Virus record (IMG/VR): IMGVR_UViG_3300033148_008025
Coordinates: 32,001 to 96,000 of that record
Reading direction: 5' to 3' (one strand)
DNA length: 64,000 bases
Source: a virus
Made by a program: the position numbers and the translations under genes. A model generated the notes under the pieces. It saw only the letters and a program-made list of their open reading frames with translations, was not told where the DNA came from and searched no databases. Below are positions 1,742-63,615 of this stretch, in pieces (the first letter of the stretch is position 1; each line of letters opens with the position of its first letter).

Positions 1742-1750
1742 CCTTATGCC
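1742..1750 (-). promoter_or_regulatory. GGCATAAGG motif, putative phage-specific promoter
   Basis: Exact copy 27 nt upstream of the ATG at 1714; one of five intergenic copies. Confidence 0.65.
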
Positions 1751-1791
1751 ATCAGATTGCAGCTGGGTTGCTGGTATGCGACGATACGGTC

Positions 1792-3027
1792 ATGAACCAT
1801 TTCCTATCTGGCTTCACCGATGAATTGGTGAAGATCGCAGTAGACAGAGAGTCTGGAAAAGGAAACGGGCTTGGCCTCCTGGAGGCCGGGATGGTGGCAT
1901 CGACAATTGCTCCATTTATGGGGCTCATCGGAGAAGAGAAGATTCTCCACGACCCACATGTGCAGAAAAGCATCATGAGGTTTACCTCACTGGAATCCCT
2001 CGAGCGTCACGCAAGGCCTGGAGATATTGTCCTGATGAGCGGGCCCAGAGATCCTACCAGGCCTGTTACCACCGCAATATCCGGAACAGACTGGTCTCAT
2101 GCACAGCCGGTCGTTGGCGTTCGAGACGGAAAGGCCGTAACCCTCAGCGCAGGTCGATTCAACAGAAGAGATGTGAAGGTAAAAACTCGTGCAGATTTCA
2201 TGAAGATGGCTCCAACGCTGGCCAAAGATATGAAGTCATGGGGATATACCGATGCAGTAATTCTTCGTCCAAAAAACAAGATGAGCAATACAGACTTAAA
2301 GAAGTTTGTTGACGAGGTCGTCGATCGGTCGCGTATGCCGTGGGATGCAAAGAAAGCAGTTAGCGGGGTTGCTAAAGATCTGTTTATTCCAAAGCGAATG
2401 GTTTCAGAAGGGGCTCTTAAAAAAATAGAAGGTCAGACGATGATTCGCTATGGGAACATTGTAGATCCTGTTTCCGGCAAGAAGGTTCGAGTCCCAATGA
2501 CGTGCAAGGGAAACACCTGTTCGGGCTTAAGTGCACAGGCAGCTAGAATTGCTGGCGGTGGAGCAATCCTAGGCAGCAAGCTCCCAGCAGATATATTGCC
2601 AGCAGACTTCGTTCGTTCGAAACAGTATCGTCCAGTAGGCGCAGTGATTAACAAAAGCAAGCTTCCAGTAAAAATCCTTCCATACCTAACCCGAGCGGGA
2701 GTGGGTACCGCTGCCGCCGGAGGCATCTACGCAGCCCATGAGCGACCGGAACTGTTGGCAGCAGGAGTAGGAGCAGCGGGAGGATCTGCGCTCCAGGGGG
2801 CGTTGACAAGGCGGATAGGAAAGGCAATGGGGCTATCCTACGGACAGACAAGTCGTAAGATTCCAAATCTGATGAGATCAGTGCAAAAAACAGTGTCCTC
2901 ACCCACGACCATTGGCAGGGTAAGCCCAATCTTAAAATATCTAGCAATGGCAACTCCGATGAGAGTTCTTGGCGGGCTAGCTGCCCTCAAGGTGGGCCGG
3001 GTAGCGCTTGGCCGAGAAGGAGAATAG
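1792..3027 (+). CDS. permuted NlpC/P60 (YiiX/YebB-like) papain-fold protein with DELxKxA leader
   Basis: PGDIVL...WSHA (His), MPWD, CSGL (Cys), ILPADF in the permuted His-before-Cys order; N-terminus MNHFLSGFTDELVKIA. Confidence 0.7.
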   Translation: MNHFLSGFTDELVKIAVDRESGKGNGLGLLEAGMVASTIAPFMGLIGEEKILHDPHVQKSIMRFTSLESLERHARPGDIVLMSGPRDPTRPVTTAISGTDWSHAQPVVGVRDGKAVTLSAGRFNRRDVKVKTRADFMKMAPTLAKDMKSWGYTDAVILRPKNKMSNTDLKKFVDEVVDRSRMPWDAKKAVSGVAKDLFIPKRMVSEGALKKIEGQTMIRYGNIVDPVSGKKVRVPMTCKGNTCSGLSAQAARIAGGGAILGSKLPADILPADFVRSKQYRPVGAVINKSKLPVKILPYLTRAGVGTAAAGGIYAAHERPELLAAGVGAAGGSALQGALTRRIGKAMGLSYGQTSRKIPNLMRSVQKTVSSPTTIGRVSPILKYLAMATPMRVLGGLAALKVGRVALGREGE

Positions 3028-3029
3028 GC

Positions 3030-5129
3030 ATGAACGGCATCCTTACAGGCTTCATAGATGAACTGACAAAGGTATCATCCCAAAAAGAGAAAGAAGCGCC
3101 ACTATACGAAGCAATCATGCGTCCAGGCGAACATGGTCGCGTTAGTATGAAACCGGCTGGTGCAGCACTCGGTGGAACAGTTGGAGCCCTGCTTGGAGAT
3201 TTTGCATCAAAGCGTGCAAGACTTGGCAGCAAATCCAGTATTGGAACAAAGCTTATTCGCGGTAGTGGTATTGCAGGCTTACTGGCTGGAGCCTTGCTTG
3301 CGCCAGGCGGAAAGAAGTCAAAGAAACGATCCGTCGACCTGATTCCGTCGAATCGCGCAGCAAGGGAGATTGCTGCAAAGTCAAAATCACACGAAAAGAA
3401 AGCTGCAGCAAAAACCCACCTAACGCCAGACTCATCCAACATTAACGGTTTCAGCTATGACCCCAGAGCTAAGCAGCTGACCGTGACGTTCAAGGGCGGA
3501 TCGACGTACAGATACAGGGGTGTACCGCAAGCCACCTTTCGCTCACTCAGGCGAAACAAGAGCGCCGGCAAGACACTTAACCGTCTCGTCAAAGCCAGGG
3601 ACTACGAGTACGAGAAGATTGCCAAGAAGAAAAAGCAGAAGTCCTACAAGTGCAAGTTCTGTAAGGACCAAGCTACCAAGGGCGTCATATGGGCCGAAGG
3701 CCGCGGCATCGTTCCCTGCTGTGATAAGCATCTTGGCAAAGGCAAATCTTCTATTGATGATCCGAAAGACATCGACCTGATTCGGGACCTGACAAAGCAG
3801 GCTGGATCTAAATTCACCACCTTCCTTCGGACAGCTCCAGAAGAAAAGCTTTTGGCAGCCCTCGAGAATGTTGTCGGATCTGCCAGGCCAACCTATTACA
3901 AGTCCCTCGATATTACGAAGTTCATGAACTATCTCAGGGGTGGCGGTGACAAGTTTGCTCCGAGCATTTCTTCGATGAAGAGAGATGAATTGGTTAAGGC
4001 CGTTCGCCAGCGACTCGCCGCAGGGTTTCCGAAACAGAGGCTTCGGCATACGAAGGATGGCGATGTTGAATTTGGGCGTAGTCTGAAGGAACGTGCGGGA
4101 TCTAAGATGATCCGAGTTAGTCATGGTGGAAGCGCATCCGAGCTTGAGTCGATCATCAAGTATGGTCCCAACGCGGCGGTTCCTGTTGTCCCCGGTGCGG
4201 CTGGAAAAAAAGAAGTTGTCGGACTTTTTGTTCATAAACCCTCCGATGTTTTAGCGGAACGTCTTCCAGGATACGCCAAGAGGCGGGTGGCCTACGCCGG
4301 AGGAAAACCCGCAGTTCTTAGTTTTGATATCCCAGAGAGATTGATTTCTGAGGGGGGGCGAATTGGGGGTGGTGAACATATAGTTCCGGCAAGCCTTTGG
4401 CGGTACGCGAAGAACACAAAGATCACCAAAGTAGGAGGCTCCTTGCTTGAAAAGACTTCTTCAGATGCACAGCGAGCATTCTACGCTTCAACCAGCATCT
4501 CCCCCTACTACGCCAAAAGGCAGCGCGACAAGCGCAAGCAGCAGGAGATCAATCGCCTGTTGAAGAAAGCAGGCTTCTTGCGCGAGCGCGTCCGCGAAGG
4601 TAACTCGAGTGATCTTATTGGTCGCATGACGAAAAAACGCCGTCAAATCGAGAAGATAGCCGGTGCGTGCGTGAAGACTCTTACCTGGGGAGGACTCACG
4701 ATGAAGTTTGAGTACCTCAAGGATGACATCAGGTCTGGTACCGGGGAAGGCGGAAAGAAGTGGTCTCGTAAAATGAAGGACTGCTATGGATACATTCCCA
4801 ACACCTACGGCAAGGGCGCAGATGGGGAAGCCATTGACGTCTACTTCCAGCCCGATCCGACTGACGGCCCGGTCTTCAAGATCCGTCAGCTAAAAAAAGA
4901 GGGTGGCTATGACGAGGACAAGTTTATGGTCGGGTATGGAACATCCAAGGCGGCAAAAGCAGCCTTCGACAGGAACATGCCAGCATGGGCCTTTGGTGAT
5001 ATCACCAGTCTATCAATGAAAAGTTTTCGAACACTTGTAGGCCAAAGCGGCAGCAAGATTCGTGTACCATCAGACAGCAACGCCGAGCGCGAGCGGGTTC
5101 GCCGGGCCATGGAAAGAAAATCAGCATGA
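3030..5129 (+). CDS. polyvalent multidomain protein: leader, Gly-rich helices, KTSC domain, Zn finger, ART-like domain, InPase-like domain
   Basis: KTSC: SSNINGFSYD...LTVTFKGGSTYRYRGVP...SAG. Zn finger: CKFC...CCDKH. ART-like: VSHGGS...IIKYG...GLFV...GYA...EHIV. InPase-like: W...M...YGYIPNT...DGEAIDVY...YDEDKFMVGY. Confidence 0.75.
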   Translation: MNGILTGFIDELTKVSSQKEKEAPLYEAIMRPGEHGRVSMKPAGAALGGTVGALLGDFASKRARLGSKSSIGTKLIRGSGIAGLLAGALLAPGGKKSKKRSVDLIPSNRAAREIAAKSKSHEKKAAAKTHLTPDSSNINGFSYDPRAKQLTVTFKGGSTYRYRGVPQATFRSLRRNKSAGKTLNRLVKARDYEYEKIAKKKKQKSYKCKFCKDQATKGVIWAEGRGIVPCCDKHLGKGKSSIDDPKDIDLIRDLTKQAGSKFTTFLRTAPEEKLLAALENVVGSARPTYYKSLDITKFMNYLRGGGDKFAPSISSMKRDELVKAVRQRLAAGFPKQRLRHTKDGDVEFGRSLKERAGSKMIRVSHGGSASELESIIKYGPNAAVPVVPGAAGKKEVVGLFVHKPSDVLAERLPGYAKRRVAYAGGKPAVLSFDIPERLISEGGRIGGGEHIVPASLWRYAKNTKITKVGGSLLEKTSSDAQRAFYASTSISPYYAKRQRDKRKQQEINRLLKKAGFLRERVREGNSSDLIGRMTKKRRQIEKIAGACVKTLTWGGLTMKFEYLKDDIRSGTGEGGKKWSRKMKDCYGYIPNTYGKGADGEAIDVYFQPDPTDGPVFKIRQLKKEGGYDEDKFMVGYGTSKAAKAAFDRNMPAWAFGDITSLSMKSFRTLVGQSGSKIRVPSDSNAERERVRRAMERKSA

Positions 5130-6742: not shown

Positions 6743-6987
6743 TGATGGGGTCTCCCGTGTTTTGTTTCGAGCCTGTGAATACACTCACGCAATGCATCTT
6801 CCGGCTCTTTGTGTTCATTTCTTGAATAGTCGTAAACCCGATCTGGTCCGAGTTTGATGACGCATCGCTCTATTCCGGTTCTATCTAGAACCTCAGAGAT
6901 GATGTTTACTGGCGTGTCTTTACTTACACTCAGATCGAGATAGACGAGTTCACGCAGCTCTCTGATGCACTGGTTGTAGTCAAGCAT
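6739..6987 (-). CDS. hypothetical protein (82 aa)
   Basis: Overlaps both neighbours in the operon. Confidence 0.6.
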   Translation of the reverse strand: MLDYNQCIRELRELVYLDLSVSKDTPVNIISEVLDRTGIERCVIKLGPDRVYDYSRNEHKEPEDALRECIHRLETKHGRPHQ

Positions 6988-7426
6988 CTACCATCTCAGG
7001 GCTGATCGCTACGGCAACTTGCGCAGGGCGTAGCAACTTCCCCTTTCGGGTGTACCCTTGCCTAACTTGGCCGGCAACGTGGTGGTGTGGGATTTCTGCA
7101 GATGGGACCTCTGCAACTGCTTCCATTGTCTGTGGATCGAATGGCATTCCTTCCGCTGGTACGGCCTGGATGCCAATTTCTAGCAGTTTATGAATGAGAT
7201 GGCCTAGTGCCATGTCAATCCCACGTATCGCATCTTTCTTCCTAATGCCCTTCTGCTTTAGGCTGTTTGTTGCTCGAGCAAAATCATCAATTGCATCCAG
7301 CAGGAGACAGGCAATGTTTTCCTCCCCCTGCTCCCTTGCTCTCGACACGGCTACTGCCGTTTGCTTTCTCATGTTTTCGATTTGAGCAAGCGCTCGCTTG
7401 TACCGATCTTCTTCTTCGTTAGTCAC
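6980..7426 (-). CDS. grpE: GrpE nucleotide exchange factor, N-terminally short
   Basis: DRYKRALAQIENMRK, LLDAIDDFARA, G.PFDPQTMEAV, RQGYTRKGKLLRPAQVAVA; GTG at 7426 with AGGAG SD 6 nt upstream. Confidence 0.9.
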   Translation of the reverse strand: MTNEEEDRYKRALAQIENMRKQTAVAVSRAREQGEENIACLLLDAIDDFARATNSLKQKGIRKKDAIRGIDMALGHLIHKLLEIGIQAVPAEGMPFDPQTMEAVAEVPSAEIPHHHVAGQVRQGYTRKGKLLRPAQVAVAISPEMVDA

Positions 7427-7448
7427 AGTAAACTCCTGTGTGTTTTGT

Positions 7449-7537
7449 GGTGGCGACTCCACTACCTTCAAGAAAGTGGGGGACAGCGCAACAAGGCACT
7501 GTCCCCCGGGTTTCCCAGAGGAGGAGTCCAAGCCACC
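7449..7537 (-). ncRNA. candidate structured RNA (multi-way junction) upstream of grpE
   Basis: Outer stems GGTGGC/GCCACC and GACTCC/GGAGTC; 12-bp inner stem GGGGGACAGTGC/GCGCTGTCCCCC; two small hairpins; intergenic. Confidence 0.45.
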
Positions 7538-7566
7538 GCCAAGGTCTAAAATAAATCTGAGTGAAC

Positions 7567-7604
7567 AAAAAGGTGGCCCCGACACATTCGTGTCGAGACC
7601 ACCT
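7567..7604 (-). terminator. Rho-independent terminator
   Basis: AGGTGG/CCACCT and CGACAC/GTGTCG stems followed by T5 on the - strand, just after the 7611 stop. Confidence 0.6.
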
Positions 7605-7610: not shown

Positions 7611-7862
7611 CTAGGATGGGAGGGTTTCTTCTTTTGCTGCCTCAGTGGCAGGGAGTGTGATTTGCTTCTTGAGCTCAGACACTTCCTCCTGCAGTTTTGG
7701 GATGCAGACGTTCTCGGCTTTCAGCTCGATCAGGCCAGACTCAAGAAACTCAACCTTTTCGTTGAGCTCTTTCACCTTACGCCCGCGGAGGATTATTCCT
7801 CCAAGTGTTCCAGCCACGAAGCCAGCTGCAGCAGTAATTCCAGTTTTGATAATATCGGTCAT
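7611..7862 (-). CDS. small membrane-anchored coiled-coil protein
   Basis: Gly/Ala hydrophobic helix then heptad pattern; GGAG SD. Confidence 0.65.
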   Translation of the reverse strand: MTDIIKTGITAAAGFVAGTLGGIILRGRKVKELNEKVEFLESGLIELKAENVCIPKLQEEVSELKKQITLPATEAAKEETLPS

Positions 7863-7905
7863 ATTGGACTCCAATTCTGAGTAGGGGTGATTCCCTCTCT
7901 ACAGT

Positions 7906-7914
7906 CCTTATGCC
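7906..7914 (-). promoter_or_regulatory. GGCATAAGG motif
   Basis: Exact intergenic copy about 44 nt upstream of the ATG at 7862. Confidence 0.65.
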
Positions 7915-17860: not shown

Positions 17861-18264
17861 ATTTGCTTTCGATGGTGATAGGAGTCCATTAGGGAAGTCC
17901 TGCGTAGACAGTGTTTGCATCCGTCAAAGTTTTCATCGTGGTATCTTCCATGTTCACTCAGGCTCCATACCAAGTCGCGATCATAGAGGCGTGCTCCTTT
18001 CTTGTTCCCTCCGCTTATGCCGATTATCGAGAGGACTCCAAGCATGTGGAGTCTTCTTATTTCGAGCACTACCGTTTCGCGGTTGTCGCGAAGTGAGAAT
18101 ATGAGTTCGGATGTTGTGGCAGGGGATTCGAGAACCTCGACAATGATTCTTCCCTGCACTGGTTCGTTTGATGGTCTAGGGCGCCTCGGATCCGATGGAC
18201 CATGAGACGTCAAATTCCTTGTCGCGATCTTCCTTGCTGTGTTCAAGAAAACTCTTTCTGTCAA
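17857..18264 (-). CDS. possible winged-helix DNA-binding protein (start uncertain)
   Basis: IIVEVLESPATTSELIFSL...VVLEIRRLHMLGVL resembles a wHTH; stop is coupled to the next start. Confidence 0.5.
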   Translation of the reverse strand: MTERVFLNTARKIATRNLTSHGPSDPRRPRPSNEPVQGRIIVEVLESPATTSELIFSLRDNRETVVLEIRRLHMLGVLSIIGISGGNKKGARLYDRDLVWSLSEHGRYHDENFDGCKHCLRRTSLMDSYHHRKQI

Positions 18265-21271: not shown

Positions 21272-21280
21272 CCTTATGCC
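21272..21280 (-). promoter_or_regulatory. GGCATAAGG motif
   Basis: Exact copy 17 nt upstream of ATG 21254, just before the SD. Confidence 0.7.
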
Positions 21281-27950: not shown

Positions 27951-30869
27951 ATGTCTCGCCAAGGAACAGGTTCTAGAGTTGAGCTCCGTATGTACATGGA
28001 GGGGATTCTTGTCGAGAACGGACTAGCAAACGTTAGCGTTAGTGGCGACATCGGAATGCCAGCATCAGCTCAGCTCGAGCTGGTTCCAACCAACACGATA
28101 AAACACATCCTTCCAGGAACATGGATTCATGTTTTTGTGACAGATCCGTGGGAGGTTAATCCAACAGGCAATCTCGATGACTTCAAGTTGCTGTTCGAAG
28201 GTGTTGTCTCGGCTAAGGGATTCACGAAAACCGACGATGGTAGAAACTTCACAGTGCAATGCATCGCACCAGAAGTATTCTGGACCGAAGCTCGTCAGTT
28301 CTGGGTAAACCTTGCGGCTGGAAGCAGTCTCGTTGACCAAATCGTAGTGCAAACGTCGGGAGGCAGTGGTCGCTTCGGAATGATTGGGGGGAACGCCAAG
28401 TTTGGCTACATGCAAAGCAAGCTCAAAAAAATCGAGGATGGAAGCGAGGAGCGCTTCATGGACACACTCGTGTCAGTTCTCGATGATATCGGAGGAGTCA
28501 ACCCGTATTACACCAACGCAAAAAACAGAATAAGACTTACCGATCGTATTGTTAGGGGGGCCGCAGGAAAGACCGAGGAGCTGTTTCAAATATCGCTCTT
28601 CACCGACTTCCTAGAAGGCCTCGCTTCTCGAACTTCCGATCAGTCAAGCTTGCTCGAAGTGATCAACTCTCTGCTTGGTGCAATTCTCCATGAATGGGTT
28701 TCTGTTCCTGCCCCGCCATACATCAAATCTCAAGTCTTTGACCGGGACACGTTCGGAAATATCAAGCGTGGTAAAAGCACCGTAAGGAAAAATACGGGAG
28801 ACGGAAAAAGAAAGAAGAAGGTCGACATCTACGACTTCAAGACTGCCCAGGACGACATTATCGCGAGCATCATATTCAAGCCTCACATCTACACGCTATC
28901 CCCACCTACGTGCAACATCCTCTACCCCAACATGTATGATCAGATGTCATACAGCCACAACCACATGAATGAAACAACGAGGCTTCAGATGCAGCCGCAG
29001 TTGTTTTCCAGTGCTTTCAGGAAGATCTCGAAACACCTGAGGATCATGCGTCCGACCGAACTGGAAATCTTCACCGGTCTCACTCGAGACAAGAAGGCTG
29101 GGACTAGAGGGAAACGGACACCTGATGCCAAGTACGCAGACGGAGCTGGCCAAGCTCCCGTGTTTCACGACTATGACTGGGCAACAAACGAGGAGCGAAT
29201 CCGTGGAATCAAATACAACTTCATAAATCTCGCTCCGGCCCCGGGCACCCTGACGATGACAAGTCAGGGAAAACGACAACCATCCGGAACAAGAAAAGGT
29301 GGTGCACCGAAGTACTTGCAGAACGTGGCAAGCTACGAGTACTACAAGTCAAAGTTTTCGGCCAGAGGCGCAACAGTGTCCGGCCCCTTGAACATTCGCC
29401 CCGTACCAGGGTTTTCAATCCTATTACTGGATGATTCCGCATCCCAGCAGAACATCGTTGCATATCTTAGCGGGATTACTCATTCCATTAGCGCCGACGG
29501 GATGGCAACAACCCAGTACAGCATCAGCCTTCCAAGGCTGACCGACGAGGTGGACTACAATCGCCCTAAGTTCAAGAAAAGCGCGACAGGTGAAAACGAA
29601 ATCGATTTTGACCTATTCAGAGACGAGGAAGGCAGGTACGACTTTGCGAAGCTGTTTGACGGCGTCAATGAGCCGCCGATTCCTGAGTGGTTTGACGACG
29701 ACTACAAAAACCTCCTCGACCTAGACGTGAGATATCGAGAGTGGTTTGGAACCAATGTCGGGGTAACGCAGAACCTCTTATTTGTAGATCCGGAGCAGAC
29801 GGAAAAGAATGCAATCGCAAATCAGGAGGCTGCAAGAGCAGTATACCTGGAGGAGAACGGCGTTGAGCCGGAACCAGGAGAGATACCCGACTATCCAAAA
29901 TCCCTAAAAGACGACATTGTTCAATCAAACAACACGATCGGATTGAATGAGGCAGTTTTGGAACTAAACGAAAGATACACAAAGGCTCGCGGCAACGGCA
30001 GGGAGAAGGAAGAAGCTGGGGTACGAACGGCGAGAGCATTCACGAAAATCGACGAAGCGTTCAGATTCATCGGAGCTTCTCCGTTCGAATTGTCGGACCA
30101 AGCGATAGGCGAAAAGAGCAAGTCCGATCAAACCACCTTTGTGAAAAACCCGGCGTCGGAGAGGGTTATCAACTACAAGACGATGAGGCTAGACAGGTTC
30201 GTCGGAGACACTTCCCCAGGGTCTGGATATTCAGGTGTCCCAGAGGGAGAGTCCAAGGAAACAAACGATTCAAGCGGGAGCGGGGTTTCCGAGCGCATGT
30301 CTGGTGCTTTTTCAAAATTCGATACGATCGTGCACACCGGCGATAAGGCACTCAAGACAAAGGAGAGGGCTGATGCTGTAAAAGCAGAGAGTGCACCTTC
30401 ATCAAGTCCGCGATATGACGGACGCCCCAGAATGTACGATTTTGAATTTCGTATATGGCAGGACTCAATCAAGGCTGCACAGGCAGCGGGGTTCACCATC
30501 GACGGTGAGAAGATTGCCGATTCTGCTGCCGTCGCAGACCACTATGTCAATGGAAGTAGTGGGACAATACGAGGTGCGACTGCCGAAGAGAAAGCTGCTG
30601 CTCGCGAGAGCAGGGTTGCAACAAACGCACAGAGGACTGCAGAGGAAAGCGATCGCATGTCCAAGGGGCGTCATCCTGTTCGACGAGTTCGTTCTAGGTG
30701 CCCAAACATGCCCCCCGCAAACCAGGCTCCCACCGGAGCCGGACTAGAGGAAGAGCTTGTCCTCCCGCTTCCTCAGCCGCTATCGGAAAAGCAGGTTATT
30801 AACATCAGAAGGTCTATCATCGACGCTTATCGAGACGAATTGGAGAGAACTCGTGGATTCACAGGATAG
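27951..30869 (+). CDS. baseplate hub protein (gp27/gp44/VgrG-like)
   Basis: A(Q)LEL...LLFEG.V N-terminus; late GPLNIRPVPG...YL.GITHSI motif; size and position. Confidence 0.55.
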   Translation: MSRQGTGSRVELRMYMEGILVENGLANVSVSGDIGMPASAQLELVPTNTIKHILPGTWIHVFVTDPWEVNPTGNLDDFKLLFEGVVSAKGFTKTDDGRNFTVQCIAPEVFWTEARQFWVNLAAGSSLVDQIVVQTSGGSGRFGMIGGNAKFGYMQSKLKKIEDGSEERFMDTLVSVLDDIGGVNPYYTNAKNRIRLTDRIVRGAAGKTEELFQISLFTDFLEGLASRTSDQSSLLEVINSLLGAILHEWVSVPAPPYIKSQVFDRDTFGNIKRGKSTVRKNTGDGKRKKKVDIYDFKTAQDDIIASIIFKPHIYTLSPPTCNILYPNMYDQMSYSHNHMNETTRLQMQPQLFSSAFRKISKHLRIMRPTELEIFTGLTRDKKAGTRGKRTPDAKYADGAGQAPVFHDYDWATNEERIRGIKYNFINLAPAPGTLTMTSQGKRQPSGTRKGGAPKYLQNVASYEYYKSKFSARGATVSGPLNIRPVPGFSILLLDDSASQQNIVAYLSGITHSISADGMATTQYSISLPRLTDEVDYNRPKFKKSATGENEIDFDLFRDEEGRYDFAKLFDGVNEPPIPEWFDDDYKNLLDLDVRYREWFGTNVGVTQNLLFVDPEQTEKNAIANQEAARAVYLEENGVEPEPGEIPDYPKSLKDDIVQSNNTIGLNEAVLELNERYTKARGNGREKEEAGVRTARAFTKIDEAFRFIGASPFELSDQAIGEKSKSDQTTFVKNPASERVINYKTMRLDRFVGDTSPGSGYSGVPEGESKETNDSSGSGVSERMSGAFSKFDTIVHTGDKALKTKERADAVKAESAPSSSPRYDGRPRMYDFEFRIWQDSIKAAQAAGFTIDGEKIADSAAVADHYVNGSSGTIRGATAEEKAAARESRVATNAQRTAEESDRMSKGRHPVRRVRSRCPNMPPANQAPTGAGLEEELVLPLPQPLSEKQVINIRRSIIDAYRDELERTRGFTG

Positions 30870-31686
30870 GCAGATTGGACTTGAAATAGAGGCTGAGCTG
30901 GAGGAGTGGCTTGACAAGGAAGCTGCTGCTCGAGGTATTGACCGAGAAGCTCTGCAGCAATCAGAGCTGGAGGCGTGGGAGCGTTGGAGTAAGGACCCCA
31001 ACCAGCAAGACTTTGAGACGCTGTACCAGAGTCACCAGCCACTGTTCGAGACAATAGGTGCTCGATACATGAAAAGCAGCAACCTTCCCACAGCTGCAAT
31101 CAGATCTAGGATGACGCAGAACTACGTGAAGGCCCTCGAGGGATACGACCCAACAAGAGGGGCGAAGCTATCGACGCATGTCATGAACACACTTCCGCAT
31201 CACATTCCAAGATACATACAGAAGTATACAAACATTGGAAGAATTCCTGATGACATGGGTGGGATGATCGGACTACTCGAGGAGCGGAATGCTGCACTAT
31301 CAGACCGCCTTGGACGATTGCCGACAAACGACGAGCTCGCTGATGACATGCTAATGTCTGCGCGGGACTATTCCGATCAAAGGAAAAAACTCATAACACC
31401 AAAAAAGGTGGGGACGCTGAGAAGGTCTTTGCGGCTAGACTTTGTCGCAGAAGAGGCTGGCGGCGTTGCCCCAACGCATGGTGTCTCGAAGCTTGAGCAG
31501 CATGCAGTTTATTTGCATGGCTCATTGAATTCCGAGCAAAAACTAATTCTCGAACATACCTACGAAGGGTTTGATAAGCCGATCATCCAGGACGTTGAAC
31601 GACTGTCCAGGACGGTAAAGATGTCTCCTCAAAAGGTTCGTGCGATCAAGAAGCAAATCTGGAAAAAGATGGAACGGTACATGTAA
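30853..31686 (+). CDS. sigma70-family RNA polymerase sigma factor
   Basis: Region 2 KALEGYDPTRGAKLSTH; region 3 LGRLPTNDELADDM; region 4-like LNSEQKLIL...MSPQKVRAIKKQIWKKM; GTG at 30853 with GGAG SD. Confidence 0.8.
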   Translation: MDSQDRQIGLEIEAELEEWLDKEAAARGIDREALQQSELEAWERWSKDPNQQDFETLYQSHQPLFETIGARYMKSSNLPTAAIRSRMTQNYVKALEGYDPTRGAKLSTHVMNTLPHHIPRYIQKYTNIGRIPDDMGGMIGLLEERNAALSDRLGRLPTNDELADDMLMSARDYSDQRKKLITPKKVGTLRRSLRLDFVAEEAGGVAPTHGVSKLEQHAVYLHGSLNSEQKLILEHTYEGFDKPIIQDVERLSRTVKMSPQKVRAIKKQIWKKMERYM

Positions 31687-47073: not shown

Positions 47074-47075
47074 CC

Positions 47076-47411: not shown

Positions 47412-47503
47412 TGGGTTCCCTTTTCTTATGTTGGACTTGGAAGGAATAGTACTGTTTCCTCCTTACATATCTTTTGCCGGTAAAGTCTCAGTGCTATGCC
47501 TAA

Positions 47504-47533
47504 TTGACCGTTTTTGCGGGAGCATGATACCTT
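47504..47533 (+). promoter_or_regulatory. sigma70-like promoter of the head/portal operon
   Basis: TTGACC-N18-TACCTT upstream of 47559. Confidence 0.5.
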
Positions 47534-47558
47534 CACGTAAGGTTTTAGGAGTTCATCA

Positions 47559-54926: not shown

Positions 54927-55456
54927 CAGGGGTAGCGGTCGAGCACGCTTCTTTGCTGTGACGGCACTCCTTGGGGCTGAGACGGGTAGTGCGGTGGTGG
55001 AGCTCCCAGTGGTATCCCGTAGCCCGCCGGACCCTGCTGGGGCTGCTGATGCTGCTGGCTAGGGGGGAACCCAAGTGGTGAGCTTCTAGCATGGTTTGGC
55101 ATAGACGGATTTCCTGTCATTGTGCCAAGTGCTGCTATTGGGAGAATCGGTAATCCGCTTCCTTCCCACTTTCCTAGGAAGTGTTGGTAAACCATGGACC
55201 CTGCCGCGAGCATGAATGCCCAGGCGCAGGCCGCGAAAAATGTTCGCATCCCACTGCCAACAGGTGTCTGATTGACGGCCCCTGTGGTGGGGGGGACAAG
55301 CCCAGAATTATCTGTGATAAATCCTGAGGCTGGGACTGCAGCGGCTGCAACTGCAAGAAAACCCAGGTCTGACAGTGTTGGCCCTTTCTTCTTTGCTGTA
55401 ACTCTTCGCTTTTTGGTGGGGAAGCTGTTCTTTGCTAGAACGATGTAACAAATCAT
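54923..55456 (-). CDS. membrane protein with Pro/Gln-rich tail
   Basis: Two or three hydrophobic segments; downstream of a GGCATAAGG motif. Confidence 0.6.
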   Translation of the reverse strand: MICYIVLAKNSFPTKKRRVTAKKKGPTLSDLGFLAVAAAAVPASGFITDNSGLVPPTTGAVNQTPVGSGMRTFFAACAWAFMLAAGSMVYQHFLGKWEGSGLPILPIAALGTMTGNPSMPNHARSSPLGFPPSQQHQQPQQGPAGYGIPLGAPPPHYPSQPQGVPSQQRSVLDRYPC

Positions 55457-55548: not shown

Positions 55549-55557
55549 CCTTATGCC
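55549..55557 (-). promoter_or_regulatory. GGCATAAGG motif
   Basis: Exact intergenic copy, back to back with the RNAP start. Confidence 0.6.
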
Positions 55558-58500: not shown

Positions 58501-61500
58501 CCAGAACCAACTCTTGCATACAAGAAGTTCGAAGCCTACATGAAGGGCGCCGGTGTCAACATGGAACGACGTGGGTCAAAGATGGTGCTTGGGCCAATGA
58601 CCGACGAGATGACAGACAAGATCAGTAATGGGAAAGTTCGAGATGCAACATTCCTTCGAGCGAAAGATCTGAAGTACGAGCGCGGCGGACTGATGGATCC
58701 AAACATATTCGGCCAAGGCGACAAGTGGGGACACATCGAACTTGCCGAATCCATTCCAAATCCAGTCTTTGAAAAACCAATCAAAGTACTCACCGGCATA
58801 GATGACAGAACATTCAAGGCAGTGGTCAAAGGCGAAAGATTCTTAGACCCTAAAACCAATGAGTGGAATGAAAAGAAAGGGCTTACTGGTGGCGAAGCCA
58901 TCTCTCATTTACTGAAGCAGGTTGACGTAGATAAAGAAATTGCCATCTGGACAGACAAAGCAAAAGGAGCGGCCTACAAAAAAAGGAAGGACGGGACTCG
59001 AACGGAGGACGAACTGAACACTGCCAATAAAAGGCTTCGCTATCTTCATGCCCTCAAGAAACTAAACATGTCCCCGGACAAGGCTTACATCCAAAAGAAA
59101 ATTCCAGTTGTCCCAACGCAGTTTAGGAAGATCATCGAAATGGAGGGAGGCAACCTCTCCAACGCCGGACTCAACTCTCTGTACCGAGATGTTGGTTTGA
59201 TTAGCGACCAGCTCAAGTGGCAGAAAACCGTCGACTACATGCCCGAGTCCGTAAAGGCGGAGCTTAGGGAGAATCTGTACGGAAGTGTGAAGGCCGTAGC
59301 TGGACTCGGAGAGCAGGTGAGGCGAGGAGGAAGTCAGAAAGCTGACAAGCGTCCAAGGGGCATCATCGAACAACTAAAAGGAAAGAAAGCAAAAGAAGGG
59401 TTCTTTCAGCGGAAGGTTTTGCGCAGAACGCAGAACCTCGTCGGGAGAGGAACGATCATTCCAGATCCGAAGCTCGGGGTTGACGAGGTCGGCCTCCCGA
59501 AAGAAATGTCCTGGACACTGTTCGAGAAGTTTGTAACTCGACGCCTAGTCAATAGTGGGTACAAACCGAATGATGCAATCGAGGCAGTAAACAATCGAAC
59601 CCCTGCAGCACTATCTGCCCTGCAAGCGGAGATGGAAAGCAGGCCGGTAATGCTCAACAGGGCACCGTCACTCCATAAGTTCTCTATCCAATCGTTCAAA
59701 CCAAGAATGGTCGATGGAAAAGCGATCAAGATCCCTCCACTCATTGTCGGAGGCTTCAACGCCGACTTCGATGGAGACGCAATGACTGTGCACGTTCCAG
59801 TACTCAGCGACTCAGTGGCCGAGGCTAAGAAGATGCTCCCATCTAGGAACCTGTACAGTCCCGGAACTGGCGACATCATGATCAAACCCCAGAATGAAGC
59901 CGCCCTAGGGCTGTATCAGATGTCAATCGATCCAAAGCTCAAGGGGAAGATCTTAGAAGAACTTCCCGAGAAGACCAGAGCCAAATTCGAAAACCGTCCA
60001 CTCGATAAGAAGGGGCTTGGAGATCTGATGAAGAGCCTCGCAATCGAAAGTCCGGATGGGCATGGTGCGGTTGTCGACAAGCTCAAGCTTATGGGTGACG
60101 ACCACACATACAAGACTGGATTCACAGTCAGCCTGAAAGACTTGTCCCCGGTTCTTCCTGAGAGGAATGCAATATTCGCAAGAACGAAAAAAGACCTAGC
60201 GGGAATTGATACTAAAACCAGGAAAGGAAGAGAGGAAGCATCTGCTTTAATTTCCGCCGCAGACAAAGAACTGGAAGCCGTCTTAGCCAGTCGCCTCGAT
60301 GAGCAAGGAAACAGTTTTCGACTAATGGTGAGATCTGGCGCTCGAGGGAACATGCAGCAGCTCAAGCAGATCCTATCTGCTCCGTTTGCCGTTCCAGACC
60401 ATAGGGGGCAAGTGCTGGCAGAACCGATTACAACATCCTTTGCCGAAGGGCTGCCATTCTCGGATTACTGGAACACGCTATATGGGGCGAGGGCTGTTGC
60501 AACGGATAAGCAACTCCAAACCCAATTGCCGGGGGCATTCAACAAAGACATCATGGCCTCTTCCGTTACCAACGTGATCTCCGGCGCGGATTGTGGGGTT
60601 AATCGAGGAGTGAAGATTTCACTCAAGAGTAAAATCGATGACGCAGAAGATCGTTACCTGGCCAAGGACATAAGTGTTGGCGGAACAGTTGTTGCCAGAG
60701 CGGGAACGCTTATGAGTACTGGACTGCTCAACACGCTGCGAGACCGAAAAGTCGACAACGTGGAAGTTCGCTCTCCACTCACCTGTAATAAGCCGAAGGG
60801 TACATGCGCAAAATGCTTTGGACTCAACGAGAGTGGAAATCTATCTCAGATTGGGGACAACATTGGAGCTACCGCCGGCCAGGCTCTGTCTGAACCATTG
60901 ACCCAGATGACACTGAGAACCTTCCACCAGGGAGGTGTTGCTGGAGGGCGAGGTGTTGTGAGCGGATACGACAAAATCGACAAGCTCTTTAAGATGCCAA
61001 AGATCAAAAGAGGAAAAGCCACCCTTGCCAAAAGTGATGGAGTCATTGAAAGCGTAAAAAATGCACCTGGTCGAACAGGGAAAAACATCAAAATCAGTGG
61101 CTATAGAAAAACTCATTTTGTTGAAAACGATCTGTGGAACAGCAACAAAGCTCGCGTTGGGAAGAATGTTTTCAAGGGGGACATCCTCTCCGACGGACTT
61201 GTTCAGCCACAGGAACTCGTCGAATTAAAAGGAATGCAGAGTGCACAAGAATACCTTGTCGATGAGATTCAAGATGCCTACGGATCTCAGGGAGTGAAGC
61301 TGAAAAGAAAGACTGTAGAAACAGTAATCAGGGCAGTTGCGAACACCACAAAGATCCACGACGCAGGCGACAGCAACTTCCTCATCGGCGATGTTGCACC
61401 ATGGACGGTTGTGGAGGATTACAACCGGAGATCTCTAGGTAAAAAAGGACTCGATGAGATTATCGGACTTGCCCTCAAAGAGGACGTTCCTGGCATCAGA

Positions 61501-61800
61501 AAGAATACGATTATCTCCGAGAAAATTCGAAGCACGCTGGAGCGCATGGGCAAATCGGAAGTTGAGGTGGGACCGCGTCCAATCGGGCACGAGCCGTTCC
61601 TGAAGGGGATTGAGCAGATTCCAATGTTGCGCAAAGACTGGATGAGCCAGATGGGATACCGGAACATAGAAAAGGCGATCACTGAGGGTGCTGCTACTCT
61701 TTCAGAGTCCGACATCCACGGGTATGCGCCGGTCCCAGCATTTGCCTACGGAGCCGAATTTGGGCTACCTGGCGGAGGAAAAGAGGAGGGAAGTTACTAA
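55570..61800 (+). CDS. rpoBC: fused beta-beta' multisubunit-type DNA-directed RNA polymerase (2076 aa)
   Basis: Beta motifs: GSFIIDG...SQLRRKPG, VHPSQMGFIDPIHTPD, GYNFEDGI, GDKLTNRHGGKG, LNPHGVVSRIN. Beta' motifs: GHIELA, LNRAPSLH, NADFDGD (59758-59778), SGARG, CNKPKGTCAKCFG, EPLTQMTLRTFH. No stop at the junction near 58560-58590. Confidence 0.97.
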   Translation: MPTMESFDYQDQFNRVKKDVIASVTKALDIQSAGANRKMVVHKVWIDDNKNPADWESQKQAVRKDKTWGVPVYATVDLIDRKTGAVLSSEERIKVATLPRPTNLGSFIIDGKHYQVQSQLRRKPGVYTVQKRNKQLKTEVNIQKRPFDIDMDPETQIFKMKKAGSDQAFALYPILSRLGISDVAMARRWGKDVLEANKSIKPKNAEVSVRKAALFFTGSNFDSAEDAANAIKEYFQDTEIKPEVTKSTLGKAYTKVTPDLLLRGSEELLRANRGEREADDRQALEFKKVLGMSDLMRERMLQSDGQLAGAMSKVRGGISRKINNRKKPVSEISKLIKTNEFTPFFNSFFSQSSLSNITDQTNPITMLNGTAKITVLGEGGVMDATRVRGEERAVHPSQMGFIDPIHTPDSGNIGLVMNLPLGVTKNGENLQTKVIDPITKKIRSITPSEARNMVVAFPDQYSKKTGKFLGDKVRAFVNGQFENVSPDRVDVVLASPKQAFSIASNTIPFLPAAQGVRAQMATKMLEQAIPLSEREAPLVQVGLGRSTIEKSIGEGFSVQALDDGIIEKVEDGKITIKTKDGKVEQKLYTNIPLNKKAFLTSTSTVKEGDAVKKGDVIADSNFTKDGQLALGTNLRAAYIPYKGYNFEDGIVITESAAKKLTSEHMNEFASSIEKGMEVSLKDYMAWKGGGLDLSQRRKLDKDGVIKIGETVHKGDALWVGTRENKYDPDYIAAKKMNPNQDPKKAYREEWTKDGLGEVVDVVKSNGKIKVYVKSKEAAVIGDKLTNRHGGKGIVTKIIPDGEAPYTADGRAVDILLNPHGVVSRINPSQILETAAAKIADLEGKPYVVENFSGENYTESVTKAVKKAGISDTETLYDPHTKKALGDVLVGPQYTLKLSKQATSQFSARSEGKYDADLAPLKGGEDGAKALDMLTFYSMLSHGARSNIREMATYKATENKEFWRWVERGASSGMITPPPEPTLAYKKFEAYMKGAGVNMERRGSKMVLGPMTDEMTDKISNGKVRDATFLRAKDLKYERGGLMDPNIFGQGDKWGHIELAESIPNPVFEKPIKVLTGIDDRTFKAVVKGERFLDPKTNEWNEKKGLTGGEAISHLLKQVDVDKEIAIWTDKAKGAAYKKRKDGTRTEDELNTANKRLRYLHALKKLNMSPDKAYIQKKIPVVPTQFRKIIEMEGGNLSNAGLNSLYRDVGLISDQLKWQKTVDYMPESVKAELRENLYGSVKAVAGLGEQVRRGGSQKADKRPRGIIEQLKGKKAKEGFFQRKVLRRTQNLVGRGTIIPDPKLGVDEVGLPKEMSWTLFEKFVTRRLVNSGYKPNDAIEAVNNRTPAALSALQAEMESRPVMLNRAPSLHKFSIQSFKPRMVDGKAIKIPPLIVGGFNADFDGDAMTVHVPVLSDSVAEAKKMLPSRNLYSPGTGDIMIKPQNEAALGLYQMSIDPKLKGKILEELPEKTRAKFENRPLDKKGLGDLMKSLAIESPDGHGAVVDKLKLMGDDHTYKTGFTVSLKDLSPVLPERNAIFARTKKDLAGIDTKTRKGREEASALISAADKELEAVLASRLDEQGNSFRLMVRSGARGNMQQLKQILSAPFAVPDHRGQVLAEPITTSFAEGLPFSDYWNTLYGARAVATDKQLQTQLPGAFNKDIMASSVTNVISGADCGVNRGVKISLKSKIDDAEDRYLAKDISVGGTVVARAGTLMSTGLLNTLRDRKVDNVEVRSPLTCNKPKGTCAKCFGLNESGNLSQIGDNIGATAGQALSEPLTQMTLRTFHQGGVAGGRGVVSGYDKIDKLFKMPKIKRGKATLAKSDGVIESVKNAPGRTGKNIKISGYRKTHFVENDLWNSNKARVGKNVFKGDILSDGLVQPQELVELKGMQSAQEYLVDEIQDAYGSQGVKLKRKTVETVIRAVANTTKIHDAGDSNFLIGDVAPWTVVEDYNRRSLGKKGLDEIIGLALKEDVPGIRKNTIISEKIRSTLERMGKSEVEVGPRPIGHEPFLKGIEQIPMLRKDWMSQMGYRNIEKAITEGAATLSESDIHGYAPVPAFAYGAEFGLPGGGKEEGSY

Positions 61801-62129: not shown

Positions 62130-62134
62130 AAAAA

Positions 62135-62638
62135 TTAGCTTGGTGGCAGTAGGTAGCCTACGCAAGCATCGTCAGCACCCTTCGTTCCCATCTCAACACA
62201 CGAAAGTTCACTATTGGTGTCGCTGTCATCTGGAGCCGTAACAAACCATCGACAACCCCTGCACTTCGGAACAGAGCCTGAGCACACTGATTGTCGATAG
62301 TCGTCTGACATGTTCGCCTTACCATCTCCTCGCAAGAAATATTCTCGTAGTCTTTCTCGAGCCTGTGGTTCTAGGTCCTTCATGTCCATCCGGTTGATTA
62401 TTAGATAATCCCTGAAATTCCGTAAATTCCTTTTGGGAATATCAATCCCGTGATGTTTTAGAATACGGGCAAGTTTGACCAGACTCCCCGTCTCAGTACT
62501 TCTCCTGATAATCTTCGCAAGACTAGCATCTTGCTCTGCAGTTATTTGAAGTCGAGTTTCCACTGACTTCGAAATCTTTTCATCGAAGTCATGCAGCATC
62601 TTTTCCTGAGAAGAGGTGGAACCGTCTGGCTGTTTCAT
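62135..62638 (-). CDS. hypothetical protein with C-terminal Cys cluster
   Basis: C...CRGCRWF...C...C. Confidence 0.65.
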   Translation of the reverse strand: MKQPDGSTSSQEKMLHDFDEKISKSVETRLQITAEQDASLAKIIRRSTETGSLVKLARILKHHGIDIPKRNLRNFRDYLIINRMDMKDLEPQARERLREYFLRGDGKANMSDDYRQSVCSGSVPKCRGCRWFVTAPDDSDTNSELSCVEMGTKGADDACVGYLLPPS

Positions 62639-62648
62639 AGCTGAGATG

Positions 62649-63128
62649 CTACCTCAGAACAAGCTCCGCGTACTCAATCAGATCGTCTTTGGACATCTGT
62701 CGAACTCGCTCCAACTCGTTGTGAAGTGAAGCCCGTGGACACCTTTCAATCAGGTGCCATGAGCTTGCTATCGAACCCAGCAGGCTGCTGGAATCGCAAT
62801 CGCGCCCAACTAGCATGTCTTCAAATCCGTAGGCACCAACAAAGTGCTCAACATCATCAAAGTCTACGCCTGCCGATTCTATTTTCTTGTTTACCATCGA
62901 GTGCATCTCGAAGGTGTGCTCGTCTTCACTGGCAACCCTAAGCATCGCAAGACACTTAGGGGCCAGATCCCACGGAACACACCCAGAAAACACACCGTTG
63001 CTTCCCTCGAGAACGAACTTAACACCATCGCTCCCGACGAACATTTTTCCTCGCGGACATTCTGCATCCGCCTTGGACTTACTGAGGACTGTAAACGCAA
63101 TCATTGTTTGTGGAACCTCTGTTTGCAT
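62649..63128 (-). CDS. hypothetical protein
   Basis: ATG at 63128, 4 nt after the ssb stop. Confidence 0.65.
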   Translation of the reverse strand: MQTEVPQTMIAFTVLSKSKADAECPRGKMFVGSDGVKFVLEGSNGVFSGCVPWDLAPKCLAMLRVASEDEHTFEMHSMVNKKIESAGVDFDDVEHFVGAYGFEDMLVGRDCDSSSLLGSIASSWHLIERCPRASLHNELERVRQMSKDDLIEYAELVLR

Positions 63129-63132
63129 TTTT

Positions 63133-63555
63133 CTAGAATGGGATATCGGAATCACTACTACCACCACCGAAGTCTGGTGGAGGCCCATCATTGCGACTGG
63201 ATGAATCCGATCTACTTTCTCCATCTTTCTTGCCTGGGATAAAGGCCCAGCTTGTGCATACAGTTTCAGTGGAATATCTCTTGTTTCCGTCCTTGTCCTC
63301 CCAGGAGCGAGTCTGCGTTTTCCCTTCTAGGTAGATGCCGTCTCCCTTCTTGAAAAACTTGGCGATGGTCTCGCCACTCTTCCCCCAACAAACAATCCGA
63401 TGCCACTCGGTTCGCTCCTGCTTTTCCCCTTCTTTATCTTTCCACTCATCCGATGTCGCCACCGAGAAGTTGGTTACGGAACTCTCCCCGATTTGCCTCG
63501 TCTCTGGGTCCTGCCCAAGACGACCCATTACGATATGTTTGTTAATACCTGACAT
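63133..63555 (-). CDS. ssb: single-stranded DNA-binding protein
   Basis: NKHIVMGRLGQDPE, FSVATS, ERTEWHRIV, IYLEGK.QTRSW, C-terminal DIPF. Confidence 0.95.
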   Translation of the reverse strand: MSGINKHIVMGRLGQDPETRQIGESSVTNFSVATSDEWKDKEGEKQERTEWHRIVCWGKSGETIAKFFKKGDGIYLEGKTQTRSWEDKDGNKRYSTETVCTSWAFIPGKKDGESRSDSSSRNDGPPPDFGGGSSDSDIPF

Positions 63556-63606
63556 TGTTCTGCATTTCTTTCCCCGGACAATCGACCGGATTTTCTTGTT
63601 CATTAA

Positions 63607-63615
63607 CCTTATGCC
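63607..63615 (-). promoter_or_regulatory. GGCATAAGG motif
   Basis: Exact copy about 52 nt upstream of the ssb ATG. Confidence 0.65.

What the first reader, a model, noticed from the sequence alone, without database searches (positions are those of the whole stretch)
1742..63615. GGCATAAGG 9-mer marks the start of five minus-strand gene blocks
Seen: exact copies at 1742, 7906, 21272, 55549 and 63607, all intergenic, all on the - strand, 17-92 nt upstream of the first gene of a block, and always preceded by T or G. Variants occur at 47493-47500 (GGCATAGC) and inside a gene at 18013-18021 (GGCATAAGC). A given 9-mer is expected about 0.24 times per strand in 64 kb at equal base frequencies; the motif was chosen post hoc, but the positional bias is strong. 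I could see no shared -35 element. The CATA core resembles -10 elements of group 3 sigma factors (sigmaE/K/G type). Inferred: a promoter for the phage RNAP/sigma.
Basis: partly seen in the sequence, partly recalled or inferred. Interest (0 to 1): 0.8.

Follow-up and report, generated by a model that had tools for sequence, protein, structure and literature searches.

The report
Phage-private GGCATAAG promoter class
The repeated GGCATAAGG word is almost certainly the -10-type transcription start signal in front of the replication and accessory genes of a large uncultured phage that carries its own bacterial-type RNA polymerase and sigma factor; the same signal recurs across that phage lineage, including the cultured Salmonella phage Arash.

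Summary
GGCATAAGG occurs 5 times in the window (0.2 expected) and 9 times in the 121-kb phage record. The 8-mer GGCATAAG occurs 11 times. Every copy is on the minus strand, in non-coding DNA or overlapping only the last codons of the preceding gene, ahead of minus-strand genes (SSB, SNF2 helicase, GrpE).

The word is not private to this genome. A relative with only 57% RNAP identity has 9 copies on one strand and none on the other. Salmonella phage Arash has GGTATAAG 30:1. Across 69 relatives' RNAP loci, GG[CT]ATAAG is 76:14 against the RNAP strand.

A pyrimidine-purine step sits exactly 6 nt after the word (10/11 here, 29/30 in Arash). This fits A-11...G-7 of a -10 element with +1 seven nt later. 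The ATAA core and G/C-rich extension match sigma-28 and extended -10 promoters, but -7 is G, not T.

The lineage always carries a sigma70-family gene (window 30853-31686). Its Arash orthologue, gp10, was found in virions together with the RNAP.

Best reading: a promoter class read by the phage's own sigma and fused beta-beta' RNAP. The promoter call is strong; which enzyme reads it is inferred. I found no published description. This scan has already noted the same promoter class in at least 8 other genomes.

The parts
1742..1750 (-). Promoter core GGCATAAGG. Predicted +1 at 1736 (T-G step). First gene is 1481-1714, with a 22-nt leader.
7906..7914 (-). Promoter core GGCATAAGG, internal to a minus-strand region. 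Predicted +1 at 7900. Drives 7611-7862, then the GrpE-like gene 6980-7585.
18013..18021 (-). Variant GGCATAAGC (8-mer intact) in the gap after the helicase gene. Next gene is 17114-17920. The only site here without a pyrimidine-purine step at +13/+14.
21272..21280 (-). Promoter core GGCATAAGG at a divergent junction. Predicted +1 at 21266. Drives 20118-21254 and the SNF2 helicase 18176-20116.
55549..55557 (-). Promoter core GGCATAAGG, divergent from the RNAP gene and 12 nt from its GTG. Predicted +1 at 55543. Drives 54923-55456. Relatives carry a GG-N-ATAAG word at the same place.
63607..63615 (-). Promoter core GGCATAAGG. Predicted +1 at 63601. Drives the SSB gene (probable start 63555, end 63133) and 62135-63224. 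Relative G002 has the word before its SSB gene too.
47471..47478 (-). Possible weak variant GGCAAAAG (change at the tolerant -10 T; T-A at +13/+14), 59 nt before minus ORF 47076-47411. Uncertain.
   Evidence: neither overlapping ORF has a family match
30853..31686 (+). Sigma70-family factor and candidate reader of the motif. Orthologue of the virion-associated sigma gp10 of phage Arash.
   Evidence: PMC10585845
55570..61800 (+). Single-chain beta-beta' multisubunit-type RNA polymerase (2076 aa).
7571..7604 (-). Strong intrinsic-terminator-like hairpin (15 pairs plus a T run) after the first gene of the 7906 unit.

Best explanation
GGCATAAG(G) is the -10-type core of a promoter class that drives the non-structural genes of this phage (replication, chaperone and small accessory genes). 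All of these genes lie on the minus strand.

Reading the word as G-14 G-13 C-12 A-11 T-10 A-9 A-8 G-7, transcription would start 7 nt after the last G, at a conserved pyrimidine(-1)/purine(+1) step. Window positions of +1 would be 1736, 7900, 21266, 55543 and 63601.

The promoter has no strong -35 box. Only a weak A-rich or GCAC signal is seen upstream.

The most likely reader is the phage's own sigma70-family factor (window 30853-31686) bound to the phage's single-chain beta-beta' RNAP (55570-61800). G at -7, where host primary sigma needs T, would keep the class separate from host promoters.

In the cultured relative Arash the RNAP and the orthologous sigma are found in virions. The class may therefore be the early one, fired by an injected holoenzyme.

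Shown: the motif, its strand and position, its conservation, the start-site-like step, and the presence and sigma homology of the factor. Inferred: that it is a promoter, which enzyme reads it, and when.
For: 1. Enrichment and strand lock. 5 copies against 0.2 expected in the window. The 9-mer is 9:0 and the 8-mer 11:0 in the record.
2. Position. The copies lie in non-coding DNA, or overlap only the last codons of the preceding minus gene, 5-185 nt before minus-strand starts. Some lie between co-directional minus genes, so they cannot serve a plus-strand gene.
3. Independent conservation.
   - G002 (68% GC, RNAP 57% identical): GGCATAAG 9:0 on the strand opposite its RNAP, including before SSB and divergent from RNAP.
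   - Arash: GGTATAAG 30:1, reversed-word control 4 and 6. Each minus-strand copy is followed by an SD and ATG.
   - 69 RNAP loci (1.54 Mb): GG[CT]ATAAG 76 opposite versus 14 same strand. Most of the 21 other words counted are near-symmetrical; the widest other skews (GG[CT]ATAAC 23:8, TG[CT]ATAAG 17:43) stay below threefold.
   - 39% of those sites fall in the 5.7% of bases that lie outside any ORF of 100 aa or more.
   - Ten further near-complete to complete genomes (91-100% by CheckV): nine have more GG-N-ATAAG words than the reversed-word control; G015 does not (10 versus 15).
4. Start-site signature. A pyrimidine-purine step lies at +13/+14 from the first G in 10/11 sites here (p 4e-6; 1.4e-4 after correction for 32 offsets) and in 29/30 sites in Arash (p 4e-17). 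In the family logo T is 52/90 and G 51/90 at these positions.
5. -10-like logic. Only the -10 T tolerates change. The ATAA core at -11 to -8 is identical to the sigma-28 -10 element (-15)GCCGATAA(-8) (PMC12784957).
6. Reader.
   - The profile of the window protein's family hits SigA, RpoS and RpoD structures at E 8e-20 across regions 2-4.
   - One orthologue is present in 10/10 near-complete to complete relatives, in G002 and in Arash.
   - Arash gp10 sigma and the RNAP subunits were detected in virions (PMC10585845).
7. Canonical sigma70-type promoters are not enriched: 13 against 12.3 expected, and 6 against 14.3 expected.
Against: No RNA 5' ends, binding data or in vitro transcription exist for any member. 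No RNA run could be listed for this phage.

The start-site step is not significant in G002 (4/9).

Only 11-12 sites serve about 55 kb of minus-strand genes, so other promoters or long operons must exist.

Arash has a second sigma (gp196). It has no homologue in this incomplete record and could be the true reader.

An attempt to link the -12 base (C, T or G by lineage) to the sigma segment aligned with region 2.4 was suggestive only. It is confounded by phylogeny.

The timing (early) rests on virion proteomics of one relative.
Confidence: 0.65

Rival explanations
1. It is a promoter, but the host RNA polymerase holoenzyme reads it, using the host primary sigma as an extended -10 promoter or a host sigma-28-type factor. 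The phage sigma and RNAP would serve other genes.
For: In Arash the word is usually preceded by T. That gives TGGTATAAG, which is the extended -10 consensus TGnTATAAT apart from the last base. The ATAA core equals the sigma-28 -10 core.
Against: G at -7 is essentially invariant and the T version is absent: GGCATAAT 0/0 here, GGTATAAT 1/0 in Arash. This phage also has C at -12, so the two positions that matter most to primary sigma both differ. The word is conserved in phages from 32% to 69% GC, which probably have very different hosts, and it travels with a phage sigma. Sigma-28 promoters have CG at -13/-12 in their consensus; this word has GC or GT there.
Confidence: 0.12
2. It is a phage-holoenzyme promoter of a middle class, read through a different phage sigma (the Arash gp196 type). 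The virion sigma would read another signal.
For: Arash encodes two sigma-like proteins, and gp196 does not appear in the parts of its virion protein table that I read. The genes behind the motif include replication functions, which are often middle genes.
Against: No gp196 homologue was found in this record or in G002, although both carry the motif. Both records are incomplete. The gp10-type sigma is the one present in every relative checked. In Arash a single motif class covers the whole minus strand.
Confidence: 0.13
3. It is not a promoter. It is instead an operator for a phage DNA-binding regulator, or an RNA-level signal in 5' leaders such as a processing or translation element.
For: Strand-locked words just upstream of genes would also fit a leader-RNA element. 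No RNA data are available.
Against: The word is asymmetric and short, with no dyad. Its distance to start codons varies from 5 to 185 nt. In two cases its TAA is the stop codon of the preceding gene. A fixed pyrimidine-purine step lies 6 nt downstream. The core is identical to a known sigma -10 element. No Rfam family matches.
Confidence: 0.07
4. The functional strand is the plus strand. CCTTATGCC contains TATG, the word I recalled, from memory and unchecked, for phiKZ late promoters, and would start plus-strand transcripts at divergent junctions.
For: Four of the five window sites lie at divergent junctions next to plus-strand genes.
Against: TATG is not conserved: the T-type lineages read CTTATACC. 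Several sites lie between two minus-strand genes with no plus gene nearby (window 7906; genome 19557 and 108866). The downstream SD-ATG pattern and the start-site step are on the minus strand.
Confidence: 0.02

Closest known systems
Sigma-28 (FliA/WhiG, group 3) promoters: -35 TCTAAAG, -10 (-15)GCCGATAA(-8) (PMC12784957)
   Same: Identical A-T-A-A at -11 to -8, with a G/C-rich extension at -15 to -12. The weak A-rich signal 15 nt upstream of the extended box matches the TAAA spacing. The -10 element dominates.
   Different: -13/-12 is GC or GT instead of CG. An essentially invariant G follows at -7. The upstream box is weak or absent here.
Extended -10 promoters of primary sigma (TGnTATAAT)
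   Same: G at -14, A-11, T-10, A-9 and A-8. No need for a -35 box. +1 lies about 7 nt after the hexamer. In Arash the full word TGGTATAAG differs from the consensus at one base only.
   Different: G replaces the nearly invariant T at -7. In this phage C replaces T at -12. The class is restricted to one strand and gene class of a phage.
phiKZ early promoters read by the virion-packaged multisubunit RNAP (PMC8244752)
   Same: About 30 copies of one conserved, extended -10-like word in front of early genes of a phage whose own multisubunit-type RNAP is carried in the virion.
   Different: The phiKZ enzymes are split into several subunits and are reported to lack a sigma70-family factor (PMC7824862). 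The phiKZ word is AT-rich with a T-rich upstream part. Here the RNAP is one chain and a true sigma homologue co-occurs with it.
mReC lineage (Weinheimer & Aylward 2020, PMC7481178) and Salmonella phage Arash (PMC10585845)
   Same: Phages of about 170-190 kb that encode bacterial-type beta and beta'. Arash carries the same promoter word (30:1) and an orthologous sigma.
   Different: Neither paper's main text contains the word 'promoter'. Assigning this record to mReC is by likeness; it was not tested on their tree.
T4 late promoters (TATAAATA) read by gp55. Recalled from memory, not checked here.
   Same: A -10-only phage promoter read by a phage-encoded sigma-family protein.
   Different: T4 uses the host core enzyme with gp33 and the sliding clamp. 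The word differs and serves late genes.

Membership tests
Sigma70-family-dependent promoter (-10-type element) | A conserved A/T-rich -10-like element with an A at the -11 equivalent | tested here: met
   GG[C/T]ATAAG is invariant at 7 of 8 positions in three genomes. Only the -10 T tolerates change.
Sigma70-family-dependent promoter (-10-type element) | Transcription starts at a fixed distance (about 6-8 nt) downstream of the element | tested here: inconclusive
   No RNA data. The proxy is a pyrimidine-purine step exactly 6 nt after the word: 10/11 here, 29/30 in Arash, 4/9 in G002.
Sigma70-family-dependent promoter (-10-type element) | A cognate sigma factor is available | tested here: met
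   The family profile of window 30853-31686 hits SigA, RpoS and RpoD at E 8e-20 over regions 2-4. One orthologue is present in 10/10 near-complete to complete relatives.
Sigma70-family-dependent promoter (-10-type element) | Holoenzyme binds and initiates at the site | not testable with these tools
   Needs in vitro transcription or 5'-end mapping.
Sigma-28 (FliA) promoter | -10 element GCCGATAA, with CG at -13/-12 | tested here: not met
   The ATAA core matches, but -13/-12 is GC here or GT in Arash, and G-7 is an extra requirement.
Sigma-28 (FliA) promoter | -35 element TAAA about 15 nt upstream of the extended -10 | tested here: inconclusive
   The family logo shows A at 44/90 and 51/90 at the matching positions. 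In this genome only a GCAC-like signal appears, in about half the sites.
Primary-sigma extended -10 promoter | T at -7 and T at -12 | tested here: not met
   G at -7 in all copies. C at -12 in this phage. The T-7 versions are absent.
Early promoter of a virion-delivered RNAP (phiKZ/N4 logic) | The RNAP and its specificity factor are packaged in the virion | not testable with these tools
   Shown only for the relative Arash by mass spectrometry (PMC10585845). Here the sigma gene sits in the baseplate operon with the same synteny.
Early promoter of a virion-delivered RNAP (phiKZ/N4 logic) | The genes behind the promoter are expressed first after infection | not testable with these tools
   Gene content (SSB, helicase, GrpE, small ORFs) fits early or middle genes. 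No time course exists.

The most novel reading that the evidence does not exclude
GG-N-ATAAG is the early promoter of a self-contained transcription machine that is injected with the DNA: a single-chain bacterial-type beta-beta' RNAP plus a packaged sigma70-family factor. The factor's preference for G at -7 would make the phage programme orthogonal to every host promoter. This would be the first sigma-dependent holoenzyme known to be delivered by a virion. A second sigma and a second word (TAAAATA in Arash) would then switch the same core to virion genes.
Probability: 0.35. Interest if true: 0.8.

Novelty: new variant of a known kind. Interest (0 to 1): 0.6.

Why it matters
The finding gives a concrete start signal that can be tested at the bench. 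It concerns a widespread but unstudied viral transcription system: hundreds of metagenomic relatives and at least one cultured phage, Arash on Salmonella Typhimurium.

If the phage sigma reads it, three things follow. The G-for-T switch at -7 would be a natural example of how a sigma70-family factor can be re-tuned to be orthogonal to host promoters. The single-chain RNAP plus one sigma plus an 8-bp promoter would be a compact expression module. And the motif allows gene classes and operon starts to be annotated in this whole lineage from sequence alone.

Tried and rejected
Relatives were fetched through the search for related loci and the genome search instead.
- Megablast of 12 kb against the phage collection gave no match. 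A single-protein locus search gave only one distant locus.
- No RNA holder was listed for the window.
- Rfam gave no family and no tRNA genes were found in the window.
- The sigma70-type promoter scan showed no enrichment.
- The plus-strand TATG reading (phiKZ-late-like) was rejected, because T-type lineages lack TATG and several sites have no plus gene nearby.
- The 'SD plus ORF within 130 nt' test had a 25% background and was only weakly informative: 49% against 25%.
- A plus-strand CTAAA word in this genome turned out to be the reverse complement of minus-strand terminator tails. No late promoter word was found for this phage.
- ORF 53437-54099 gave a weak tblastn hit to Arash gp10, but it is not sigma-like by profile comparison or by PHROGs.
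- Covariation between the -12 base and the sigma segment aligned to region 2.4 was inconclusive: 13 genomes, confounded by phylogeny.
- Neither the sigma nor the RNAP carries the strict GFxDELxKxA head-loading tag.
- The literature searches found no description of this promoter.
Full report
**Observation.** GGCATAAGG occurs five times in the window, at 1742, 7906, 21272, 55549 and 63607, always on the minus strand. Dinucleotide-preserving shuffles give a mean of 0.20 and never more than 1. The window is bases 32001-96000 of a 121,454-bp IMG/VR virus record that CheckV rates 67% complete. The whole record has nine copies, none on the forward strand. The 8-mer GGCATAAG has eleven copies, none on the plus strand. 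The two extra copies are GGCATAAGC at window 18013 and GGCATAAGA at genome 26396. Single-base variants of the 8-mer sit at background on both strands, so the word is sharply defined.

**Position.** Every copy lies in non-coding DNA, or overlaps only the last codons of the preceding minus gene, ahead of a minus-strand gene. Four of the five exact window sites are at divergent junctions. Site 7906 lies between two minus-strand ORFs, as do genome sites 19557 and 108866. At those two genome sites the TAA inside the word is also the stop codon of the preceding gene. Sites between co-directional minus genes cannot serve a plus-strand gene.

**Gene classes.** The genes behind the word include an SSB (63133-63555), an SNF2-family helicase (18176-20116), a GrpE-like protein (6980-7585) and small unknown ORFs. 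The plus strand carries baseplate, portal and other virion genes, and a 2076-aa single-chain beta-beta' RNA polymerase at 55570-61800. The word therefore marks the non-structural gene class, which in this phage happens to lie entirely on one strand.

**Conservation in relatives.** The RNAP has hundreds of metagenomic relatives of about 2000-2100 aa on contigs of 150-190 kb.
- In 69 RNAP-centred loci from IMG/VR (1.54 Mb), GG[CT]ATAAG occurs 76 times on the strand opposite the RNAP gene and 14 times on the same strand. Most of the 21 other words counted are roughly symmetrical; the widest other skews, GG[CT]ATAAC (23:8) and TG[CT]ATAAG (17:43), stay below threefold.
- 39% of these sites fall in the 5.7% of bases not covered by any ORF of 100 aa or more.
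- The record behind L011 (G002: 111.7 kb, 68% GC, RNAP 57% identical) has nine GGCATAAG copies, all on the strand opposite its RNAP. One lies before its SSB gene and one is divergent from its RNAP gene, as in the window. The flanking DNA is unrelated.
- The cultured Salmonella phage Arash (OQ632216.1) has GGTATAAG 30 times on one strand and once on the other. The reversed-word control gives 4 and 6. Each minus-strand copy is followed by a Shine-Dalgarno sequence and an ATG within about 20-60 nt.
- Ten further near-complete to complete genomes (91-100% by CheckV) were checked. Nine have more GG-N-ATAAG words than the reversed-word control; G015 does not (10 versus 15). The third base is set by lineage: C here and in G002; T in Arash, G007, G012 and G014; G in G006, G009, G010 and G013.

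**Anatomy.**
- Beyond the 8-mer, a logo of 90 family sites shows T (52/90) and G (51/90; purine 77/90) at positions +13 and +14 from the first G. It also shows a weak A preference at -18/-17.
- A pyrimidine-purine step occupies exactly +13/+14 in 10 of 11 sites here (binomial p 4e-6; 1.4e-4 after correction for 32 offsets) and in 29 of 30 sites in Arash (p 4e-17). In G002 it is not significant, at 4 of 9.
- If ATAAG is read as -11 to -7, the step is -1/+1, the usual distance for sigma70-family promoters.
- The only position that tolerates change is the T at -10: GGTAGAAG is 7:0 in Arash, and GGCACAAG is 4:0 and GGCAGAAG 3:0 in G002.
- At genome site 19557 the predicted +1 is the A of the start codon, which would give a leaderless transcript.
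- There is no strong -35 box. In this genome a GCAC-like signal lies 13-16 nt upstream of the word in about half the sites.

**Comparison with known elements.** The sigma-28 -10 element is (-15)GCCGATAA(-8) with A-11 flipped out, and its -35 is TCTAAAG at -36 to -30 (PMC12784957). The ATAA core, the G/C-rich extension and the position of the weak upstream A signal all line up with that architecture. In Arash the word is usually preceded by T, giving TGGTATAAG. That is the extended -10 consensus TGnTATAAT except for the last base. The distinguishing feature is G at -7. The T versions are absent: 0/0 here and in G002, and 1/0 in Arash. Canonical sigma70-type two-hexamer sites are not enriched in the window: 13 found against 12.3 expected, and 6 against 14.3.

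**Candidate reader.**
- Window 30853-31686 encodes a 277-aa protein that Pfam alone barely recognises (Sigma70_r3, E 8e-4).
- A profile of its family hits SigA, RpoS and RpoD structures at E 8e-20 to 1e-12, across regions 2 to 4.
- Its relatives sit on contigs of the same lengths as those listed for the RNAP relatives.
- One orthologue is present in each of ten near-complete to complete relatives, in G002 and in Arash.
- The Arash orthologue is gp10: 30% identity over 132 aa, pairwise E 1e-16, at the same position after a large structural gene.
- Mass spectrometry of Arash particles found the RNAP subunits gp206 (highest spectral count) and gp216, and the sigma gp10 (PMC10585845).
- The main texts of that paper and of the paper defining the probably equivalent 'mReC' lineage (PMC7481178) do not contain the word 'promoter'. 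My literature searches found no description of the motif.

**Interpretation.** I put the probability that the word is a promoter core at about 0.85-0.9. That it is read by a phage-encoded sigma on the phage RNAP is inferred from three things: co-inheritance, the non-host -7 base, and conservation across phages from 32% to 69% GC. I put the whole statement at 0.65. That it is the early class, fired by an injected holoenzyme, is a further inference from one relative's virion proteome.

**Rivals.**
- Host holoenzyme (0.12).
- A second phage sigma of the Arash gp196 type (0.13). No homologue is present in this incomplete record.
- An operator or leader-RNA signal (0.07).
- A plus-strand reading through TATG (0.02). 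T-type lineages lack TATG, which speaks against it.

**Limits.** My gene maps are simple longest-ORF maps and are unreliable in high-GC relatives. The link between the -12 base and the sigma sequence is not established.

**Earlier notes.** Earlier notes of this scan, consulted after my own analysis was largely in place, describe the same ATAAG promoter class in at least eight other genomes. They agree with this reading. The sigma-28 comparison and the '(C)AA-N19-ATAAG' upstream box came from them, and I checked both against my own logo and against PMC12784957.

Noticed in passing
Arash record OQ632216.1 (L098-L106), e.g. 30633, 109249, 111110, 137631, 139407, 142677, 173499: TAAAATA occurs 10 times on the plus strand and 3 times on the minus strand. 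Eight plus copies lie 15-35 nt before the SD and ATG of plus-strand (virion-type) genes. Three abut the reverse complement of the minus promoter (CTTATACC(C)TAAAATA). This is a candidate second, late promoter class that resembles the T4 late word. It was not found in this window's phage (2 versus 1).
   Followed up: partly
genome 19557-19565 and 108866-108874 (outside the window: window coordinates -12443 and 76866): The TAA inside GGCATAAGG is the stop codon of the preceding minus-strand gene. At 19557 the predicted +1 is the A of the next gene's ATG, which would give a leaderless mRNA.
   Followed up: partly
window 1715-1727 and 7865-7877; also genome 26276-26290 and 108842-108856: Several minus-strand genes share the ribosome-binding context GGAGTCCAA just before the ATG (4 observed, 0.2 expected in upstream regions).
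   Followed up: no
genome 23731-23738 (window coordinate -8269): GGCACAAG lies directly after a terminator-like GGGGCTTTTTT. It is followed by a T-G step at +13/+14 and then AAGGAG and ATG. This is a likely weaker promoter variant with a change at the tolerant -10 T.
   Followed up: partly
window 47044-47562: Plus ORF 47056-47562 and minus ORF 47076-47411 overlap, and neither has a family match. A terminator-like hairpin (47044-47066) and a possible variant promoter (47471-47478) suggest that a lone minus-strand gene sits inside the plus block.
   Followed up: partly
window 14945-15568 (-): DNA methyltransferase-like gene (phrog_799, E 1e-24) in the minus-strand block.
   Followed up: no
Arash 11588-11595 (+), L097: The single plus-strand GGTATAAG in Arash lies immediately before gp9 and gp10 (the virion sigma). 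Its predicted +1 falls inside the gp9 start codon. This could be early-class expression of the sigma, or chance.
   Followed up: no
Arash 130093-134670 and 139441-141261 (L096): In Arash the RNAP is annotated in two pieces, gp206 and gp216, separated by about 4.7 kb that holds nine small genes. In this window it is one 2076-aa chain. Some relatives carry intein or homing-endonuclease domains in the gene.
   Followed up: no
window 1810, 3048, 5147, 15897; genome 81641-83207 and 76285 in window numbering: Eight proteins begin with the peptide GF-x-DEL-x-K-x-A, the head-loading tag noted earlier in this scan. The sigma and the RNAP do not carry the strict form.
   Followed up: partly
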